64,000 nucleotides of DNA from an uncultured Poribacteria bacterium (GTDB taxonomy: Bacteria; Poribacteria; WGA-4E; WGA-3G): NCBI GenBank assembly GCA_958296135.2, contig CATQHZ020000001.1, forward strand, positions 3,872,001-3,936,000. Direction: 5' to 3'. Each line of letters starts with the position of its first letter. Position 1 is the first letter of the stretch. Under the pieces are notes generated by a model, which saw only the letters and a program-made list of their open reading frames with translations, did no database searches and had not been told where the DNA came from. This document shows, one piece after another, positions 38,355 through 50,895 of this stretch. Both the position numbers and the translations under genes were made by a program.

Positions 38355-38470
38355 AGTTTTCGCGGGAACCATTGGAAAGCGCGCGGGCCTGTCCCGCGCC
38401 ATCTCCGCTGCAAAAAAATCATTGCAACCGTTTTGGAAATTATGGTATAATTTTTTCTGAATGACATTAT

Positions 38471-38566
38471 GGGGTGCTCAACTAGGTTCGCGCTCGGAAG
38501 ACCGCGCCTACAAAGAGCTGAGAAAACACCCTTTGAACCTGATCTGGATCATGCCAGCGTAGGGAA
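38471..38566 (+). ncRNA. TPP riboswitch
   Basis: GGGGTGCT...GCTGAGA..ACCCTTTGAACCTGATCTGGATCATGCCAGCGTAGGGAA consensus core, upstream of thiamine genes. Confidence 0.93.
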
Positions 38567-38816
38567 ATACAAAATCAACATGTAGCAATATGGGCTGGTA
38601 GGAGCATCGAGACCGGGAGGACTCGCCTACCGGAGGAGCATCGAGACCGGGAGGACTCGCCCACAGCAATGTGTGCTCCTATTGTTTGCATGGCGAGGGA
38701 CAGCCCCTCGCCCTACGGTTGAACGGACAGTGGATGTCCGAAGCTGTCTCCTTTTCGCGCGCCGGTATGTTATCCACACCGGAAACAGGAGATAGCTTTT
38801 TTCTTGGGGATAGGTA

Positions 38817-39599
38817 ATGATGCTAACTTCCGCGAGGCACATCACTACTGTACTGCCGTGGGCAATCCTTTTCGGAATCCTCGGGGCATGGGAAGCCGGG
38901 GTGCATATTTTCAACACACCGCACTATATCTTGCCCACGCCTTCCGACATCGTCGTGACGCTCTTTGAGAAGCGAGCCCTGTTGCTGAAACACACGCTCG
39001 TCACGCTGGAAGAAATGTTGCTCGGCTTTGCGCTCGCCGCGGGCATCGGCATTCCGCTCGCCGTGCTGATGTTTGAATTTCCGGTGCTAGAGAAGGCATT
39101 CTATCCCTATGTCATCGGTTCGCAGACGGTGCCGGTGTTCGCCATCGCGCCGTTGTTGGTGCTGTGGTTCGGCTACGGCATCGCGCCGAAAGTCATCATG
39201 GCCGCGCTCATCGTGTTCTTCGCGATGGTGCTGAATACATTAGACGGGTTAAAGTCTGCCGATCCGGATACGGTAAACCTCTTCCGGATCTTGCGGGCGA
39301 ATCGGTGGCAGATTCTGTGGAAAGTCCATGTGCCATCCGCACTCCCGTCTATTTTCACTGGTGCAAAAATCGGCATATCCATCTCGACGATTGGTGCGGT
39401 GATAGGCGAATGGGTAGGCGCAAGCGCAGGCTTGGGGTATCTCATGTTGTACGCCAACGGCCAACTCCAAGTTGCACTGGTTTTCGCGGCGATTTTTTGC
39501 CTAACACTTTTAGGCCTGGGACTTTTCGGGCTGATGACGCTGTTGGAGGCATACGCTATGCCGTGGCGACGCGCATCAGCACGTCAATCCCGAACATGA
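38817..39599 (+). CDS. ABC transporter permease, ThiX/SsuC-like (thiamine precursor uptake)
   Basis: 'ILPTPSDI', 'QTVPVFAIAPLLVLWFGYG' and 'GAVIGEW...GLGYLM'. Lies downstream of the TPP riboswitch. Confidence 0.88.
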   Translation: MMLTSARHITTVLPWAILFGILGAWEAGVHIFNTPHYILPTPSDIVVTLFEKRALLLKHTLVTLEEMLLGFALAAGIGIPLAVLMFEFPVLEKAFYPYVIGSQTVPVFAIAPLLVLWFGYGIAPKVIMAALIVFFAMVLNTLDGLKSADPDTVNLFRILRANRWQILWKVHVPSALPSIFTGAKIGISISTIGAVIGEWVGASAGLGYLMLYANGQLQVALVFAAIFCLTLLGLGLFGLMTLLEAYAMPWRRASARQSRT

Positions 39600-39704
39600 A
39601 GGGGAGACCCCTCGTTCAGCTTTCACGGACTGTGGCAGGGCAGAACTATCAGCCCAAACACAGCCAAACAACCACTAATAACGAAAAAAAATAGGAGAAT
39701 TCTC

Positions 39705-40685
39705 ATGAAAACGATAATTTGTTTGATTTTTGCTATCAGCTGTGGTATCCTATGGATAGGACAAATTGATGGCCACGCCGACGCACATAAGGCAAACGAA
39801 CTGCAAAAAGTAACGCTCCTGCTGGAGTGGTTTCCAAACGCAGACCACGTCCCGCTCTACGTCGCCCAGGAGAACAAGATTTTCGCCAAGCATGGGCTTG
39901 AGGTAGAACTCCACTGGGGCGGCGACCCGAGCGCGCCGATTAAACTCGTCGCGGCCGGGAAATATCCGTTTGCTATTGATTACCAACACGGAGTGACAAT
40001 CGCGCGAGCGGCAGACTTGCCGGTTAAAGCAATCGGGTTGCTCGTGGAAAAGCCGCTCAACACGATTAGCTTCCTTAAGAAATCCGGCATTAAAACGCCG
40101 GCGGATTTCAAAGGAAAGAAAATCGGCTACACCGTCGCACCACTGGATGTCCTCCTCTTTAACGCCATCGCCGCGGAGGCCGGGTTGGCGGAAAGTGATT
40201 ACGAACTAGTAAACGTCAGCACGAATATCTCCGCATCCCTGATGACAGGCAAGATCGACGCAGTCATCGGCCCGTTTCGGAACTTCGAGATTAACGAGTT
40301 GAAACTTGAAGGCGCGGAAGCCAGTTATTTCCCGCTGGAAGAGCACGGCATCCCAGACTATTATGAGCTCGTTATCATCTCCAACGATGCGTCTTTGCAG
40401 GAGAATCCGATGACTGCCAAAAAACTGATGATGGCGATTCGGGAGGCGATTCAATTCACGAAGGAGAATCCGGACGAAGCACTGAAACACTTTTTCAAGG
40501 CGAATCCGGACATTCGGAAAGATTTGAATGAGCTCGCTTTTCGGGATACGTTGGAGGTATTCGCCACAACGCAGGTTCAATCCGCGGAGAAGTGGGCAGC
40601 CTTCGTGAAGTTTGCCCATGAAAAAGGGTTAATCTCCAAAACAGTCACGGCGGAAGAACTGTTTATCAACGTGTTGGAAGAGTAA
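39705..40685 (+). CDS. NMT1/THI5-like (ThiY) substrate-binding protein
   Basis: 'LEWFPNADHVPLYVAQE', 'TPADFKGKKIGY' and 'HGIPDYYELV'. Confidence 0.88.
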   Translation: MKTIICLIFAISCGILWIGQIDGHADAHKANELQKVTLLLEWFPNADHVPLYVAQENKIFAKHGLEVELHWGGDPSAPIKLVAAGKYPFAIDYQHGVTIARAADLPVKAIGLLVEKPLNTISFLKKSGIKTPADFKGKKIGYTVAPLDVLLFNAIAAEAGLAESDYELVNVSTNISASLMTGKIDAVIGPFRNFEINELKLEGAEASYFPLEEHGIPDYYELVIISNDASLQENPMTAKKLMMAIREAIQFTKENPDEALKHFFKANPDIRKDLNELAFRDTLEVFATTQVQSAEKWAAFVKFAHEKGLISKTVTAEELFINVLEE

Positions 40686-40841
40686 ACTGACTGAAGAAAC
40701 GCCGCTTCACCGTAGGGCGAGGGCCCAGCGAACGCGAATCGCCGAGGGTTCCCCCTCACCATGGTGACAGACAGTTGTAGGAGAGACCTCGGGTCTCGAC
40801 ACCTCGGACGCACTAGCCCGCGCCAGGCACCGGACAAATTC

Positions 40842-42119
40842 ATGGTAGAAAACAGAAACGTTATCATCATCGGCGGCGGCGTAATCGGGCTCGGTATCGG
40901 GTGGCAATTAGCGAAGGCAGGTGCCTCCGTCACGCTATATGAACGCGACCGGGCAGGGCGCGCCGCCTCTTGGGCTGCCGCTGGGATGCTCGCACCACTC
41001 GCCGAGGCACATACCGAAGAACCTGAACTCCTGAAGCTGGGATGCCACAGTTTGGCACGCTACCCGCAGTGGGTGAAGGAATTAGAGGCAGACGCGCAGA
41101 TGTCCATCGGTTATCGCACCGAAGGCACGCTCATCGTCGGGTTGGAGCCTGATGATACGCATCAACTTCAACATCTCTACACGTCGCAAAAACAGTTAGG
41201 GCTAGATGCTGAATGGCTAACCGGACGAGAAGCGCGTGCAATTGAACCCGCACTCTCACCGCGTGTCACGGCAGCAATCCGATGTGCAGCAGACCATCAG
41301 GTAGACAACCGCTGCATGGTTACCGCGTTGCCGCGTGCTTACCAAGCGCGCGGCGGCGTATTATGCGAAAATACCAGCGTAGAACGAATTGAGGTGAATA
41401 ACGGTGTCGCAACGGGAGTGTCAGTAGGAGAGACCCCCCGTTCTCGATGCAATACCGGCGGAGAACCCTCCCCATCTCAATTGCATCCCCCGGTAGGAGA
41501 GTCTCAACTCCCCCCGGTAGGAGAGACCTCCCGTTCTCGATGCAATACTCAGTCTCGATGCAATACCCAGTCTCAACTACATGAGGCTGACGTGATTATC
41601 CTCGCGGCGGGGCCCTGGTCATCGCAGATTCCGGGAATCCCGGATGCCATCCGTCCGCCGGTGCGTCCCGTCAAAGGGCAGATGTTAGCACTCCAGATGG
41701 AGGCAGGCATCGCCGTAGAGACGGTTATCCGCACGGTGCGGGCACGATATCCGACATCGGTGTATCTCGTGCCGAGAACCGATGGCAGACTCATCATCGG
41801 TGCCACAAGTGAGGAAATGGGGTTTGATACGCGCTTAACGGCGGGCGGTATGTTTGAACTCCTCCGCGGCGCGTGGGAGGCTGTCCCCGGCGTTTATGAA
41901 CTGCCGATTTTAGAGACATGGACGGGCTTGCGCCCGGGGAGTCGAGACAACGCGCCCATCCTTGGGCATACGCCCATTGAAAACCTGATTGTGGCGACAG
42001 GACATTATCGGAACGGCATCCTGCTCACGCCTGTCACCGCCTATGAAATATCAAAGTTAATTTTAACAGGCGAACCGTCGCCGATAATCGCGCCGTTCCA
42101 ACTTAAACGCTTTCTTTGA
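40842..42119 (+). CDS. thiO: Glycine oxidase ThiO, with an in-frame repeat-derived insert
   Basis: GxGxxG, 'ASWAAAGMLAP', 'PVKGQML', 'WTGLRPGS.DNAP' and 'TGHYRNGILL'. Confidence 0.93.
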   Translation: MVENRNVIIIGGGVIGLGIGWQLAKAGASVTLYERDRAGRAASWAAAGMLAPLAEAHTEEPELLKLGCHSLARYPQWVKELEADAQMSIGYRTEGTLIVGLEPDDTHQLQHLYTSQKQLGLDAEWLTGREARAIEPALSPRVTAAIRCAADHQVDNRCMVTALPRAYQARGGVLCENTSVERIEVNNGVATGVSVGETPRSRCNTGGEPSPSQLHPPVGESQLPPVGETSRSRCNTQSRCNTQSQLHEADVIILAAGPWSSQIPGIPDAIRPPVRPVKGQMLALQMEAGIAVETVIRTVRARYPTSVYLVPRTDGRLIIGATSEEMGFDTRLTAGGMFELLRGAWEAVPGVYELPILETWTGLRPGSRDNAPILGHTPIENLIVATGHYRNGILLTPVTAYEISKLILTGEPSPIIAPFQLKRFL

Positions 42120-42149: not shown

Positions 42150-42356
42150 ATGAGAATACGCATTAACGGTGAAAACAAGAACGTCAACGCCGAGTTAACC
42201 CTCTACGAACTACTGAGTGAAATGGAAATCGAGCCAACCCAAAACGGCATCGCTGTCGCTGTAGACAGAGAAGTTGTGCCCAAAACGGCGTGGCAGAAAA
42301 AGGTGCTCGGTGAAAATAGCGAAGTTGAGATTATCCGCGCTGTTCAGGGTGGATAG
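42150..42356 (+). CDS. thiS: Sulfur carrier protein ThiS
   Basis: 68 aa, 'IAVAVDREVVPK', C-terminal GG. Confidence 0.93.
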   Translation: MRIRINGENKNVNAELTLYELLSEMEIEPTQNGIAVAVDREVVPKTAWQKKVLGENSEVEIIRAVQGG

Positions 42357-42361
42357 CGGCC

Positions 42362-42650
42362 CGTTCAACCGTAGCGCGAGGGAAAACCTGTCCCTCGCGA
42401 GGCTCAGAACCGCCCCCTGCAACCGTAGCGCGAGGGCCGTCACGGTCACGCCTACAGAAAATGTGCGTGTGTCGCCCCGCGTAAACACGCTACCTTTAAC
42501 TTTGTCATCTCTGCAGCCTCGCTGCAGAGATGTCCACTGTCCATCGCGAGGAACAGAACCGCCCCTGCAACCGTAGCGCGAGGGCCGTTACGCCGAAACT
42601 TTGTCATCTCTGCCGCCTCGCTGCAGAGATGTCCACTGTCCCTCGCCATC
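42362..42650. repeat. REP-like cluster with nested hairpin inserts
   Basis: Three ACCGTAGCGCGAGGG...CCCTCGCG-type units, two of which carry the CATCTCTGCAG/CTGCAGAGATG module. Confidence 0.85.
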
Positions 42651-42696
42651 TATGATGGATAATACAAATGAATCTGATGCTAGGAATAGCAAAAAT

Positions 42697-43122
42697 ATGA
42701 ACAGCCAAGAGCCCCGCTGGATACAACGAGCCACTAGTTTTGGCAAGGCTTTATCGCGATTGCGAGCCGCTGTTGAATTGGCGGCGCAACGCGAACTCTC
42801 CGATTTGGAACAGCAAGGGTTGATCCAAGGGTTTGAATATACTCACGAATTGGCATGGAAGACCTTGAAGAATTTCCTTGAAGCCCAAGGCGTGCAAAAT
42901 TTATACGGGGCGAGGGATACAACCCGTGAGGCTTTTAACCGAAGCCTCATTGAAAACGGCGAAGTCTGGATGGATATGATTGACAAACGCAACCTGACTT
43001 CGCATACGTATGATGAGGCAACTGCAGATCAGGTTGGGGACTCTATTCTCAACACTTACTTTGTGGAGTTTGAGACGTTGCTAAAGAGACTCGCTCAACT
43101 GAGGCAGGGAGAATCTTTATGA
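42697..43122 (+). CDS. HEPN-domain protein (HI0074 / nucleotidyltransferase substrate-binding family)
   Basis: 'GLIQGFEYTHELAWKTLK' and Rx4H motif 'RNLTSH'. Confidence 0.88.
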   Translation: MNSQEPRWIQRATSFGKALSRLRAAVELAAQRELSDLEQQGLIQGFEYTHELAWKTLKNFLEAQGVQNLYGARDTTREAFNRSLIENGEVWMDMIDKRNLTSHTYDEATADQVGDSILNTYFVEFETLLKRLAQLRQGESL

Positions 43123-43502
43123 AATACGGATTGTCAACGCGGACGCGCCAAGAGCTCGCCAAGGTCTTCAGTCGCTACCCCGAAGTGGAAGAAGCGGTAT
43201 TATACGGTTCGCGGGCCAAAGGCACATATAGAAACGGGTCTGACATCGATCTGACACTCAACGGCAGTGCAGAACTCACACATACTATTGTCTCTCGCAT
43301 CGCGAATGACTTCTATGAGGGACCCCTGCCCTATAAGATCGATCTCTCCATTTTCAACAAACTTCGTAACCCGGAGATGGTTGCGGAAATTCAGCGCGAT
43401 GGCGTAGTACTTTACAAAAAAGGTGATTTGGGCGAGCCGGTAGGCGCCGTTGAAAACCGCGCCTATGGGGATGTACGAAAACAAAACCCATGCAAAAACT
43501 AA
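43119..43502 (+). CDS. Minimal nucleotidyltransferase (MNT)
   Basis: '[15 protein letters not shown]' and 'LPYKIDL'. ATGA overlap with the HEPN gene. Confidence 0.88.
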
Positions 43503-44269
43503 AAATCGCGGATAAAACCTATCACTCCAGACTGCTCATCGGGACAGCCGGATACCCGAATTTTCACGTGATGACAGAAGCAGTAGCGGCAAGCGGTGCC
43601 GAAATCGCTACCGTCTCAATGCGGCGCGTGAAATTCACCGACGTGTCCGGCGAGAATGTGTTTGCGTTGCTCCGCGAGCGCAGCATCACCATTCTGCCGA
43701 ATACAGCAGGCTGTTTCACGGCGAAGGATGCCATCCTCACGGCGCACCTCGCGCGCGAGGCACTAGAGACACCGCTCATCAAACTGGAAGTCATCGGCGA
43801 TGAACAGACGCTGTTTCCCGATGTCGAGCAGCTGCTCAGTGCAGCGGTGACGCTAGTCAAAGACGGGTTCACGGTGCTGCCCTATTGCAACGATGATCCG
43901 ATTACGTGTAAGAAGTTAGAGGATATCGGGTGTGCCGCCGTAATGCCGCTCGGCGCGCCGATCGGCTCAGGCATGGGCATTCGGAACCCCTATAACCTAC
44001 AGATCATCCGCGGTAGCGTGCAGGTGCCCCTCATCGTCGATGCCGGCGTCGGCACCGCATCAGATGCAGCGGTGGCGATGGAATTAGGATGCGACGGTGT
44101 GCTGCTCAACACCGCGATTGCGAAGGCGCACCGCCCGGTGCTCATGGCAGAAGCAATGAAAAAAGCGATCGAGGCGGGCAGGGCGGCATTTTTAGCGGGC
44201 CGCATCCCGCGCAAACTCTATGCGAACGCCTCTAGCCCGCAAGAGGGGCTCATAGCACCGCTCCTGTAG
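43490..44269 (+). CDS. thiG: Thiazole synthase
   Basis: 'LPNTAGC', 'IKLEVIGD', '[12 protein letters not shown]' and '[11 protein letters not shown]'. Confidence 0.96.
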
Positions 44270-44445
44270 GAGAGACCTAAAGATCGCGGGGACAGGCCCC
44301 CGCGCTACGGTGCTCATAGCACCGCTCCTGTAGGAGAGACATCCCGCGTCTCGACTCCACTTCTGGTAGGAGAGACATCTGGTCTCGATGCAATACCGGC
44401 GGAGAGACATCCCGCGTCTCGATGCAATACCGGCGGAGAGACTCA
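44266..44445. repeat. REP-like cluster (families A and B)
   Basis: Repeated GTAGGAGAGAC...TCTCGA and GATGCAATACCGGCGGAGAGAC units. Confidence 0.8.
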
Positions 44446-50592: not shown

Positions 50593-50895
50593 CCCGTAGG
50601 AGGGACATCCTTGTCCCGATACTCCTATCCCCGTAGGAGGGACATCCTTGTCCCGATACCGTACCCATCGAGACCAGGAGGTCTCTCCTACCGAGAAAAT
50701 TCAAGACCGGGGGAAGGCAGGATGGCACATCCCCGGCCCGATACCCCCTAGGAGGCACATCCTTGTCCCGACATCCCATCCCCGGTAGGAGGGACATCCT
50801 TGTCCCGATGCCCCCGGTAGGAGAGACCTCCCGGTCTCGATACTCCCATCCCCGGTAGGAGGGACATCCTTGTCCCGATACCCGCCTGTCTCGAT
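50593..50895. repeat. REP-like array (family B, CCGTAGGAGGGACATCCTTGTCCCGAT)
   Basis: At least six copies or variants. Confidence 0.88.

What the first reader, a model, noticed from the sequence alone, without database searches (positions are those of the whole stretch)
41424..41580. In-frame ~50-aa insertion of a REP cluster inside ThiO (protein-coding palindromes)
Seen: the DNA reads GTAGGAGAGACCCCCCGTTCTCGATGCAATACCGGCGGAGA...CCCCGGTAGGAGAG...CCCCGGTAGGAGAGACCTCCCGTTCTCGATGCAATAC, closely matching the intergenic cluster at 44366-44445. It encodes VGETPRSRCNTGGEPSPSQLHPPVGESQLPPVGETSRSRCNTQSRCNTQSQL between 'ATGVS' and 'EADVIILAAG', normally a short turn, and all catalytic motifs stay in frame. 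Established: Rickettsia palindromic elements are the known precedent for such coding insertions. Inference: with the other cases in this window, GTAG-REPs here repeatedly generate new protein loops.
Basis: partly seen in the sequence, partly recalled or inferred. Interest (0 to 1): 0.8.

Follow-up and report, generated by a model that had tools for sequence, protein, structure and literature searches.

The report
REP repeats coding inside thiO
A cluster of small mobile palindromic DNA repeats sits in frame inside a conserved thiamin-pathway enzyme gene of a sponge-symbiont bacterium and adds a floppy loop of about 47 residues, a tidy example of a phenomenon already described in other bacteria.

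Summary
Window 41424-41579 is an in-frame, stop-free cluster of GTAG-headed REP units inside thiO (CDS 40842-42119; TIGR02352 349 bits, cut-off 250.8).

- **Insert is lineage-specific.** 78 of 81 Poribacteria ThiO proteins have 12-13 residues at this beta-hairpin turn. The three species of this genus have 16, 31 and 59. Their DNA gains are +12, +57 and +141 nt, all multiples of 3.
- **The gene is under selection.** dN/dS is 0.06-0.09. It lies in a TPP-riboswitch operon with thiS and thiG.
- **The repeat is a true REP family.** It has a GTAG head and a 6-bp hairpin, with 291 exact cores, all on contig C1. A REP-associated tyrosine transposase gene is flanked by these units. The family is expanded only in this genus.
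- **Coding insertions are common here.** 44 of 269 REP clusters lie in frame in 42 long ORFs, including ClpB, RsgA, RraA and LeuRS. Unit spacing is a multiple of 3 in 21 of 21 pairs inside ORFs, but random outside.

The most likely reading is a tolerated insertion, translated as a disordered surface loop. Translation itself is not shown.

Intragenic GTAG REPs were described by Di Nocera et al. 2013, and RPEs in Rickettsia earlier. This is a new member of a known kind, of moderate interest.

The parts
38460..38582 (+). TPP riboswitch heading the operon that contains thiO
   Evidence: Rfam RF00059, 59.7 bits against a gathering score of 54.3, E 4.9e-10
38817..40685 (+). ABC permease (38817-39599) and NMT1/THI5-like binding protein (39705-40685), upstream genes of the operon
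   Evidence: Pfam BPD_transp_1 112 bits; NMT1 224.6 bits
40776..40797 (+). Single REP unit in the spacer just upstream of the thiO start
   Evidence: nhmmer hit, E 0.016. It lies before ATG 40842, the start shared with orthologs
40842..42119 (+). thiO (glycine oxidase) CDS, 425 aa including the insert
   Evidence: TIGR02352 349.1 bits, cut-off 250.8. Pfam DAO. Best solved-structure matches are glycine oxidases by sequence (6j38, 4ysh, 7cyx) and by fold (6j38, 4ysh, 7cyx, 1ng3). dN/dS 0.06-0.09
41424..41579 (+). In-frame REP cluster (52 codons; net +141 nt against orthologs). Pieces: unit 1 at 41424-41456; degenerate unit at 41457-41488; truncated unit from 41493; unit 4 at 41517-41548; 18-nt tandem duplication at 41535-41570
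   Evidence: AF2 pLDDT is about 30 for protein residues 199-242, between strands 189-195 and 245-248
42150..42356 (+). thiS
   Evidence: TIGR01683, 67.1 bits against a cut-off of 37.45
43490..44269 (+). thiG; its TAG stop (44267-44269) is the TAG of a REP GTAG head
   Evidence: Pfam ThiG 370.8 bits; sequence read; ORF end
44263..44445 (+). Intergenic REP cluster of the same sub-family (GATGCAATACC spacer) as the thiO insert

Best explanation
A GTAG-type REP element entered the DNA that codes the exposed turn of a beta-hairpin in the FAD-binding domain of ThiO. This happened in an ancestor of this Poribacteria genus. The element belongs to a family tied to a REP-associated tyrosine transposase (RAYT) and amplified in this genus.

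The copy survived because it fell in one of the five stop-free reading frames of the element, kept the gene in frame, and sits where extra residues are tolerated. The array then changed in unit number by local duplication, slippage or further REP copying. It now holds 1, 2 and about 5-6 units in the three species. Selection passed only length changes that are multiples of 3.

The insert is most likely transcribed and translated as a disordered loop rich in Pro, Ser, Gly and Arg, and is neutral or nearly so for enzyme function. The same process has decorated dozens of other proteins in this genome.

**Shown:** the insert, its REP identity, its restriction to this lineage, frame preservation, and purifying selection on the gene.
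**Inferred:** translation of the insert, retained enzyme activity, RAYT as the mobilising enzyme, and growth rather than shrinkage of the array.
For: **1. Insert at one site, only in this genus.**
- 78 of 81 ThiO sequences have 12-13 residues between G192 and D250.
- G000 has 59, G002 (L083) 31 and G001 (L086) 16.
- DNA between shared anchors is 63 nt in G004, 75 in G001, 120 in G002 and 204 in G000. The gains are +12, +57 and +141 nt, and all frames are open.

**2. REP identity.**
- The core GTAGGAGAGAC occurs 291 times on C1 and never on C2-C4.
- The consensus is a GTAG head followed by the hairpin GAGACC-TCCC-GGTCTC.
- Intergenic units fold at -5.3 to -5.6 kcal/mol as DNA.
- A gene matching NF047646, REP-associated tyrosine transposase (125.4 bits, cut-off 80), is flanked on both sides by these units.

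**3. Expansion in this genus.** Counts of an 18-nt pattern with up to 2 mismatches are 466 in G000, 167 in G001 and 1791 in G002. The other 28 relatives have 0-97.

**4. The gene is functional.**
- dN/dS is 0.061-0.069 among the three insert-bearing orthologs, over 374 codons.
- Conserved residues lie on both sides of the insert.
- The operon has a TPP riboswitch, thiS and thiG.

**5. Position in the fold.** The insert lies between two strands and has pLDDT of about 30.

**6. Frame preservation across the genome.**
- 44 of 269 clusters are spanned in frame by ORFs with at least 100 codons on each side.
- At most 12 clusters have long same-strand flanks in different frames. That count includes ordinary gene boundaries.
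- Spacing of adjacent same-strand units is a multiple of 3 in 21 of 21 cases inside long ORFs. Outside ORFs the three classes hold 30, 33 and 28.

**7. The host ORFs are real genes.** 35 of the 40 ORFs scanned have Pfam families. About 20-22 have a domain across the REP or domains on both sides.

**8. Inserts confirmed against relatives.** The RraA, RsgA and ClpB inserts are missing in the other genera searched.

**9. Not an assembly error.** Logan contigs of four runs hold 41100-41900 with no difference. Two other species, assembled independently, carry REP units at the same site.
Against: - **No direct evidence of expression.** Nothing shows that the insert is in the mRNA or the protein, or that the enzyme is active.
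- **Weak structure model.** Mean pLDDT is 61 from a 20-sequence alignment, and much of residues 274-372 falls below 50. Surface exposure of the turn is inferred, not measured.
- **Read support is not independent.** The four runs come from one sample, which may be the source of the assembly.
- **A paralog exists.** A second ThiO-like gene scores over the family cut-off (C1:1088435-1089475, 275.5 bits). Redundancy could relax constraint on the loop.
- **Direction of change is unresolved.** By dS, G000 branches first, so shrinkage in G001 is as possible as growth in G000.
- **Degraded hairpins in thiO.** The two full thiO units carry a G-to-T change that breaks one stem pair (-1.3 and -2.9 kcal/mol as DNA, no better than shuffles).
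- **Gene calls are approximate.** Genome-wide counts rest on stop-to-stop ORFs, not on a gene caller.
- **Weak hits may be false.** Some nhmmer hits with E between 0.01 and 1 may not be real REPs.
- **Paralogs inflate the tally.** It includes 7 WD40 proteins, 4 type ISP enzymes and 2 MmeI-like enzymes.
Confidence: 0.85

Rival explanations
1. The intragenic array acts at the RNA or DNA level. Its hairpins would modulate translation speed, mRNA stability or processing within the thiO-thiS-thiG transcript, or supercoiling. On this view it is kept for that reason and the coded loop is a by-product.
For: The 176-nt region folds at -59 kcal/mol, z = -3.0 against shuffles. In-CDS units keep hairpins as stable as intergenic ones across the genome: median RNA MFE -9.35 against -9.40, n = 66 and 215, p = 0.08. 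PMC3733652 argues that many REPs act as RNA elements (passages).
Against: The unit number differs freely among the three species (1, 2, about 5-6). The two full thiO units have weakened stems. 78 of 81 orthologs do without any insert. No expression data are available.
Confidence: 0.08
2. thiO here is a decaying or dispensable gene. The REP array would be tolerated because the ThiO-like paralog, or thiamin uptake, covers the function.
For: A second gene passes the TIGR02352 cut-off (275.5 bits). The operon also encodes an NMT1/THI5-like binding protein and a permease.
Against: dN/dS is 0.06-0.07 among the three REP-bearing orthologs. The frame is open in all three despite three different insert lengths. 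Invariant residues are kept on both sides of the insert. The paralog is only 36-38% identical.
Confidence: 0.04
3. The repeated peptide (PVGETSRSR and similar) is a protein-level motif spread by selection on the protein, not a DNA element that happens to be translated.
For: The VGETSRSR reading is the commonest in-ORF frame, at 17 of 44 clusters by my count.
Against: The same DNA unit is read in five frames and orientations in different genes: VGETSRSR, RRDLPVS, IETGRSLL, NRDREVSPT and RPGGFSY. 82-85% of units lie outside ORFs with at least 100 codons on each side. The units flank a RAYT gene.
Confidence: 0.02
4. The insert is an assembly or consensus artefact, with repeat reads collapsed into thiO.
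For: It is a repeat-rich region in a metagenome-assembled genome. 31-mer depth spikes at 41505-41558 because that unit is multi-copy.
Against: A 6.3-kb Logan contig in each of four runs crosses the whole stretch with 0 differences and no alternative joint. G001 and G002, separate assemblies of other species, carry REP units at exactly the same codon.
Confidence: 0.01

Closest known systems
Intragenic GTAG/CGTC REPs (Di Nocera et al. 2013, BMC Genomics 14:522, PMC3733652; passages read)
   Same: They are short GTAG-headed palindromes linked to RAYT genes. Some copies lie wholly inside ORFs of known proteins as singles, dimers or clusters, and clusters coding 43-82 aa are reported. GTAG ends supply TAG stops to neighbouring ORFs. 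The authors judge the inserts probably neutral and located in modular regions.
   Different: The lineage (Candidatus Poribacteria), the REP sequence family and the host gene (thiO) are different. This report adds a three-species length series at one site, dN/dS, a mod-3 spacing test, and a count against frame-breaking cases. I could not read their Additional file 3 (old .xls format), so I cannot say whether a thiO case or higher per-genome counts are listed there.
Rickettsia palindromic elements (RPE; Ogata et al. 2000, as cited in PMC3733652 and PMC3184786; passages read)
   Same: Palindromic repeats inserted in frame in many genes that likely stay functional.
   Different: RPEs are about 105-146 bp (table in PMC3184786), while the units here are about 25-34 nt. 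PMC3733652 equates the intragenic CGTC REPs of R. conorii with RPE-4 and RPE-6. I made no sequence comparison with RPEs.
Other repeats fused internally to genes: BRE in Bordetella and others, RUP and BOX in S. pneumoniae (review PMC3184786; passages read)
   Same: Small non-autonomous repeats found inside protein-coding sequences. BRE is reported in about 9 genes.
   Different: These are MITE-like elements with other mobilising enzymes, and they are not GTAG REPs.
REPIN/RAYT systems (named from my own recall of Bertels and Rainey's work; only the abstract of PMC8049555 was seen, in the listing)
   Same: A RAYT gene flanked by its REPs, with a lineage-specific population of hundreds of copies.
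   Different: REPINs are described as inverted doublets in extragenic space. Here 177 of 269 clusters are single units, and 15-18% of units lie in long ORFs.

Membership tests
GTAG-type REP family (RAYT-associated) | Short (20-40 bp) imperfect palindrome with a GTAG head | tested here: met
   The consensus of the 291 copies (aligned on their invariant GTAGGAGAGAC core) continues CTCCCGGTCTC, giving the hairpin GAGACC/GGTCTC. Intergenic units fold into a 6-bp hairpin.
GTAG-type REP family (RAYT-associated) | High copy number, dispersed on the chromosome | tested here: met
   There are 291 exact cores. The nhmmer profile gives 259 hits at E<=0.01 and 432 at E<=1, in 269 clusters. The pattern gave no hits in shuffles of the window.
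GTAG-type REP family (RAYT-associated) | A RAYT (Y1 transposase) gene flanked by the same REPs | tested here: met
   PF01797 45.2 bits. NF047646 REP_Tyr_transpos 125.4 bits against a cut-off of 80. REP hits lie on both sides, at C1:3733919-3734390 and 3735027-3735282.
GTAG-type REP family (RAYT-associated) | Mostly extragenic location | tested here: met
   39 of 213 strong units (18%) lie in ORFs with at least 100 codons on each side. The figure for random 27-mers is 47%. The family is depleted from genes but far from excluded.
GTAG-type REP family (RAYT-associated) | Binding, cleavage or mobilisation by the RAYT | not testable with these tools
   This needs biochemistry.
ThiO glycine oxidase (TIGR02352) | Score over the curated equivalog cut-off | tested here: met
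   349.1 bits against 250.8, in two stretches on either side of the insert.
ThiO glycine oxidase (TIGR02352) | Thiazole-synthesis gene context | tested here: met
   thiS and thiG lie downstream, and a TPP riboswitch lies upstream.
ThiO glycine oxidase (TIGR02352) | FAD-dependent glycine oxidase fold and activity | tested here: inconclusive
   The best sequence and fold matches are solved glycine oxidases and the N-terminal GGGVIG motif is present. The model is of low confidence and activity cannot be tested here.
Rickettsia palindromic elements (RPE) | Element length of about 105-146 bp and membership of an RPE sequence family | tested here: not met
   Units here are about 25-34 nt. The RPE size is taken from the table in PMC3184786. 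No sequence comparison with RPEs was run. This element works like an RPE but is not one.

The most novel reading that the evidence does not exclude
In this Poribacteria genus, two RAYT-driven REP families may act as a standing generator of length-variable disordered loops and linkers in proteins. There are 44 in-frame clusters of family 1 and 58 in-ORF units of family 2 in one 5-Mb genome, and unit numbers differ between sister species. The scale would rival Rickettsia RPEs. Some of the variation could be adaptive rather than merely tolerated, for example in secreted WD40 proteins, type ISP and MmeI-like restriction enzymes, or ClpB.
Probability: 0.12. Interest if true: 0.6.

Novelty: new member of a known kind. 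Interest (0 to 1): 0.4.

Why it matters
It is a clean natural experiment on how selfish palindromic repeats add sequence to conserved proteins. One site holds three array lengths in three species, all in frame, in a gene with dN/dS of about 0.07.

It extends intragenic REPs to an uncultivated sponge-symbiont phylum. For that phylum my two literature searches found no REP report.

It also warns annotators that 'extragenic' repeats can be coding, can supply stop codons, and can create spurious ORF extensions.

It does not open a new class of mechanism.

Tried and rejected
- **RNA evidence.** No RNA holder was listed for the stretch, so expression could not be examined.
- **Hairpin decay in genes.** In-CDS units are not weaker or more decayed than intergenic ones. 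Median MFE is -9.35 against -9.40 (p = 0.08), stem pairs differ with p = 0.14, and bit scores are slightly higher in CDS.
- **First screen for frame-broken genes.** It was too narrow because it required stops inside the cluster. I replaced it, which gives only an upper bound of 12, since ordinary gene boundaries are included.
- **Structure.** The AF2 model from 20 orthologs has mean pLDDT 61. I did not compute solvent exposure or distance to the active site. The second fold job was not used.
- **Supplementary table.** Additional file 3 of PMC3733652, the list of intragenic REPs, is an old .xls file and I did not open it.
- **Intein or intron reading.** I considered it but ran no dedicated test. 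The 156 nt are made of REP units and no other family matched the insert.
- **One ORF not scanned.** ORF C1:4626562-4629390, one of the 42, was not sent to Pfam.
- **First submission.** One search was returned for a missing confidence field and was resent unchanged apart from that field.

Full report
**What is in the sequence.**
- ORF 40761..42119 (+) contains the quoted DNA and peptide at 41424-41579.
- The protein is ThiO. It scores 349.1 bits on TIGR02352 against a cut-off of 250.8, in two stretches (residues 34-221 and from about 268 of the 452-aa ORF) that leave out the insert. Pfam DAO gives E 4e-69.
- The probable start is ATG 40842 (MVENRNVIIIGGG...), as in the orthologs. That gives 425 aa.
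- The insert holds two nearly identical 32-nt units, at 41424-41455 and 41517-41548. None of 100 shuffles of the window gave a match.
- It also holds a degenerate unit (41457-41488), a truncated unit starting at GTAG 41493, and an 18-nt tandem duplication (41535-41570).
- Every internal repeat spacing reported (33, 60, 93, 18, 24, 96 and 69 nt) is a multiple of 3.

**It is an insertion, and it is specific to this lineage.**
- In 19 orthologs from relatives, 17 from other genera read GVQTQD-GFQAADV at this place. The two from the same genus carry shorter REP-derived inserts.
- DNA between shared anchors is 63 nt in G004, 75 in G001 (one unit), 120 in G002 (two units) and 204 in G000. The gains are +12, +57 and +141 nt.
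- In all three species the element starts at the same codon (GGN GTN TCA GTA GGA GAG).
- Across 80 further Candidatus Poribacteria ThiO loci plus G000, 78 of 81 have 12-13 residues between G192 and D250. Only G000 (59), L083 = G002 (31) and L086 = G001 (16) differ.

**The repeat is a REP family with its own RAYT.**
- GTAGGAGAGAC occurs 291 times on contig C1 (150 forward, 141 reverse) and never on C2-C4. By my arithmetic about 2-3 copies would be expected by chance.
- The consensus is (CC)GTAGGAGAGACCTCCCGGTCTC(GAT). It has a GTAG head followed by the hairpin GAGACC-TCCC-GGTCTC.
- Canonical intergenic units fold at -5.3 to -5.6 kcal/mol as DNA.
- A profile of the unit finds 259 hits at E<=0.01 and 432 at E<=1, all on C1, in 269 clusters.
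- A Y1 transposase gene at C1:3734478-3734807 matches NF047646, REP-associated tyrosine transposase, with 125.4 bits against a cut-off of 80.
- That gene is flanked on both sides by these units.
- Counts of an 18-nt pattern with up to 2 mismatches are 466 in G000, 167 in G001 and 1791 in G002. The 28 other relatives have 0-97. The burst therefore coincides with the genus that carries the thiO insert.

**The gene looks functional.**
- dN/dS over 374 ungapped codons is 0.069 for G000/G002, 0.061 for G000/G001 and 0.067 for G002/G001. Against G004 it is 0.077-0.086.
- Invariant residues lie on both sides of the insert.
- The gene order is TPP riboswitch (38460-38582), ABC permease, NMT1/THI5-like binding protein, thiO, thiS, a HEPN/MNT-type pair, then thiG.
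- The AlphaFold2 model is mediocre, with mean pLDDT 61 from 20 sequences. It places the insert (residues 199-242, pLDDT about 30) between strands 189-195 and 245-248.
- The best fold matches are solved glycine oxidases: 6j38, 4ysh, 7cyx and 1ng3. The best sequence matches agree (6j38, 4ysh, 7cyx).
- A ThiO-like paralog also passes the family cut-off (275.5 bits). It is 36-38% identical.

**It is not an assembly artefact.**
- Logan contigs of four runs each hold 41100-41900 in a 6.3-kb contig with no difference and no alternative joint. The four runs are from one sample, which may be the source of the assembly.
- Two other species, assembled separately, have REP units at the same codon.

- 118 of 269 clusters are crossed by an open frame with at least 40 codons on each side.
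- 44 clusters, in 42 ORFs, are crossed with at least 100 codons on each side.
- The element is read in five frames: VGETSRSR, RRDLPVS, IETGRSLL, NRDREVSPT and RPGGFSY. The sixth frame contains the TAG stop.
- Pfam was run on 40 of the 42 ORFs. ThiO was scanned separately and one ORF was not scanned. 35 have a family at E<=1e-5 and 5 have none.
- By my reading, 20 of the 40 ORFs clearly have a domain across the REP or domains on both sides, and 2 more are uncertain (L041, L052). A further 13 have a domain on one side only.
- ORFs with a domain across or on both sides of the REP include RsgA, RraA, PfkB, LeuRS editing domain, P-type ATPase, GHL10, GT9, aminotransferase V, MmeI-like, ClpB, type ISP, FGGY, GT4, RecQ and a sugar transferase.
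- The RraA, RsgA and ClpB inserts are missing in the other genera searched.
- Start-to-start spacing of adjacent same-strand units is a multiple of 3 in 21 of 21 cases inside long ORFs. Outside ORFs the three classes hold 30, 33 and 28.
- At most 12 clusters have long same-strand flanks in different frames, and that count includes ordinary gene boundaries such as thiG and its neighbour.
- REPs are still depleted from genes. 18% of strong units lie in long ORFs, against 47% of random 27-mers.
- In-CDS units are not more decayed than intergenic ones.

**Caveats on these counts.**
- The ORFs are stop-to-stop frames, not called genes.
- Paralog families (7 WD40, 4 type ISP, 2 MmeI-like) inflate the tally.
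- Some weak profile hits may be false.

**This window.** Apart from thiO, the window's units of this family are intergenic (13224, 40776, 44263-44419, 50593-50879, 63259) or overlap a stop codon (44263 and 60318). I found no second in-CDS case of this family in the window.

**Mechanism.**
- The best-supported reading is a tolerated REP insertion at an exposed hairpin turn in the ancestor of the genus.
- Unit number then changed by local duplication or further copying, and selection passed only in-frame lengths.
- The product would be a disordered loop.
- Translation, enzyme activity, the role of the RAYT and the direction of length change are inferred, not shown.
- An RNA-level role cannot be excluded. 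The region folds with z = -3.0.
- That role is weakened by three observations. Unit numbers vary freely between the three species. The two full thiO units have broken stems. 78 of 81 orthologs lack any insert.

**Comparison with what is known.**
- Di Nocera et al. 2013 (PMC3733652; passages read) already describe GTAG and CGTC REPs inside ORFs of known proteins in several species.
- They report the most intragenic GTAG copies in Opitutus terrae, and clusters coding 43-82 aa in Thauera and R. conorii.
- They also report GTAG ends that supply TAG stops and RAYT genes flanked by REPs. They argue that the inserts are probably neutral.
- Delihas 2011 (PMC3184786; passages read) reviews RPE, BRE and RUP insertions in genes.
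- Searches for Poribacteria with 'palindromic', and for RAYT/REP/intragenic, gave no report for this lineage or for thiO.
- Their supplementary list of intragenic REPs was not readable to me.

**Verdict.** This is a new member of a known kind. It is well supported and of moderate interest.

Noticed in passing
window 42340-42660, 60350-61476 and 63280-63643; genome C1: There is a second GTAG REP family (GTAGCGCGAGGG...CCCTCGCG) with 548 exact cores on C1. It flanks the second Y1_Tnp hit (C1:4791155-4791397) on both sides. 58 of the 548 units lie in ORFs with at least 100 codons on each side.
   Followed up: partly
window 44267-44269 and 60322-60324: The TAG stop of thiG, and the stop of ORF 58648..60324, is the TAG of a REP GTAG head. 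PMC3733652 reports the same for other species.
   Followed up: partly
window 42601-43502: A pair made of an HI0074-family (HEPN-type) subunit and an MntA-like nucleotidyltransferase sits between thiS and thiG, next to a family-2 REP cluster. The MntA match is below its cut-off (39.6 bits against 60).
   Followed up: no
window 38460-38582: A TPP riboswitch (59.7 bits) lies ahead of the operon of permease, NMT1-like binding protein, thiO, thiS and thiG.
   Followed up: yes
genome contigs C2 (143,886 bp, 36.8% GC), C3 (67.0% GC) and C4 (60.3% GC): These contigs hold no copy of the REP core and differ in GC from C1 (54.4%). They may be a plasmid or binning contaminants.
   Followed up: no
L026:1420-2217 (-) = G000 C1 around 3734397-3735194: The RAYT ORF has an N-terminal extension of about 120 residues made of open REP units. 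The RAYT match starts at residue 121, so the true start is probably the internal MNETPRRGY.
   Followed up: partly
G000 C1:2991704-2993089 (L052): A TPR region and a UPF0175 domain are joined in one open frame by a REP cluster. This is either a REP-mediated fusion or two genes with an open spacer.
   Followed up: no
G000 C1: L029, L030, L033, L035, L042, L049, L060; L037, L040, L053, L056: Seven WD40 proteins carry a REP unit at the same place, about 134 residues from the C-terminus. Three of the four type ISP restriction enzymes carry REP units between the methylase and the specificity domain; in the fourth (L037) the unit lies ahead of the methylase domain. The shared sites could be inherited through gene duplication or could be hot spots.
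   Followed up: no
G000 C1:1090140: A REP unit of the rare GATGCAATACC sub-family lies about 650 bp from the ThiO-like paralog (C1:1088435-1089475). This may be coincidence.
   Followed up: no
G001:C120:8230-8334: A short extra fragment, 91% identical to ThiO residues 417-451, lies just downstream of thiO in G001.
   Followed up: no
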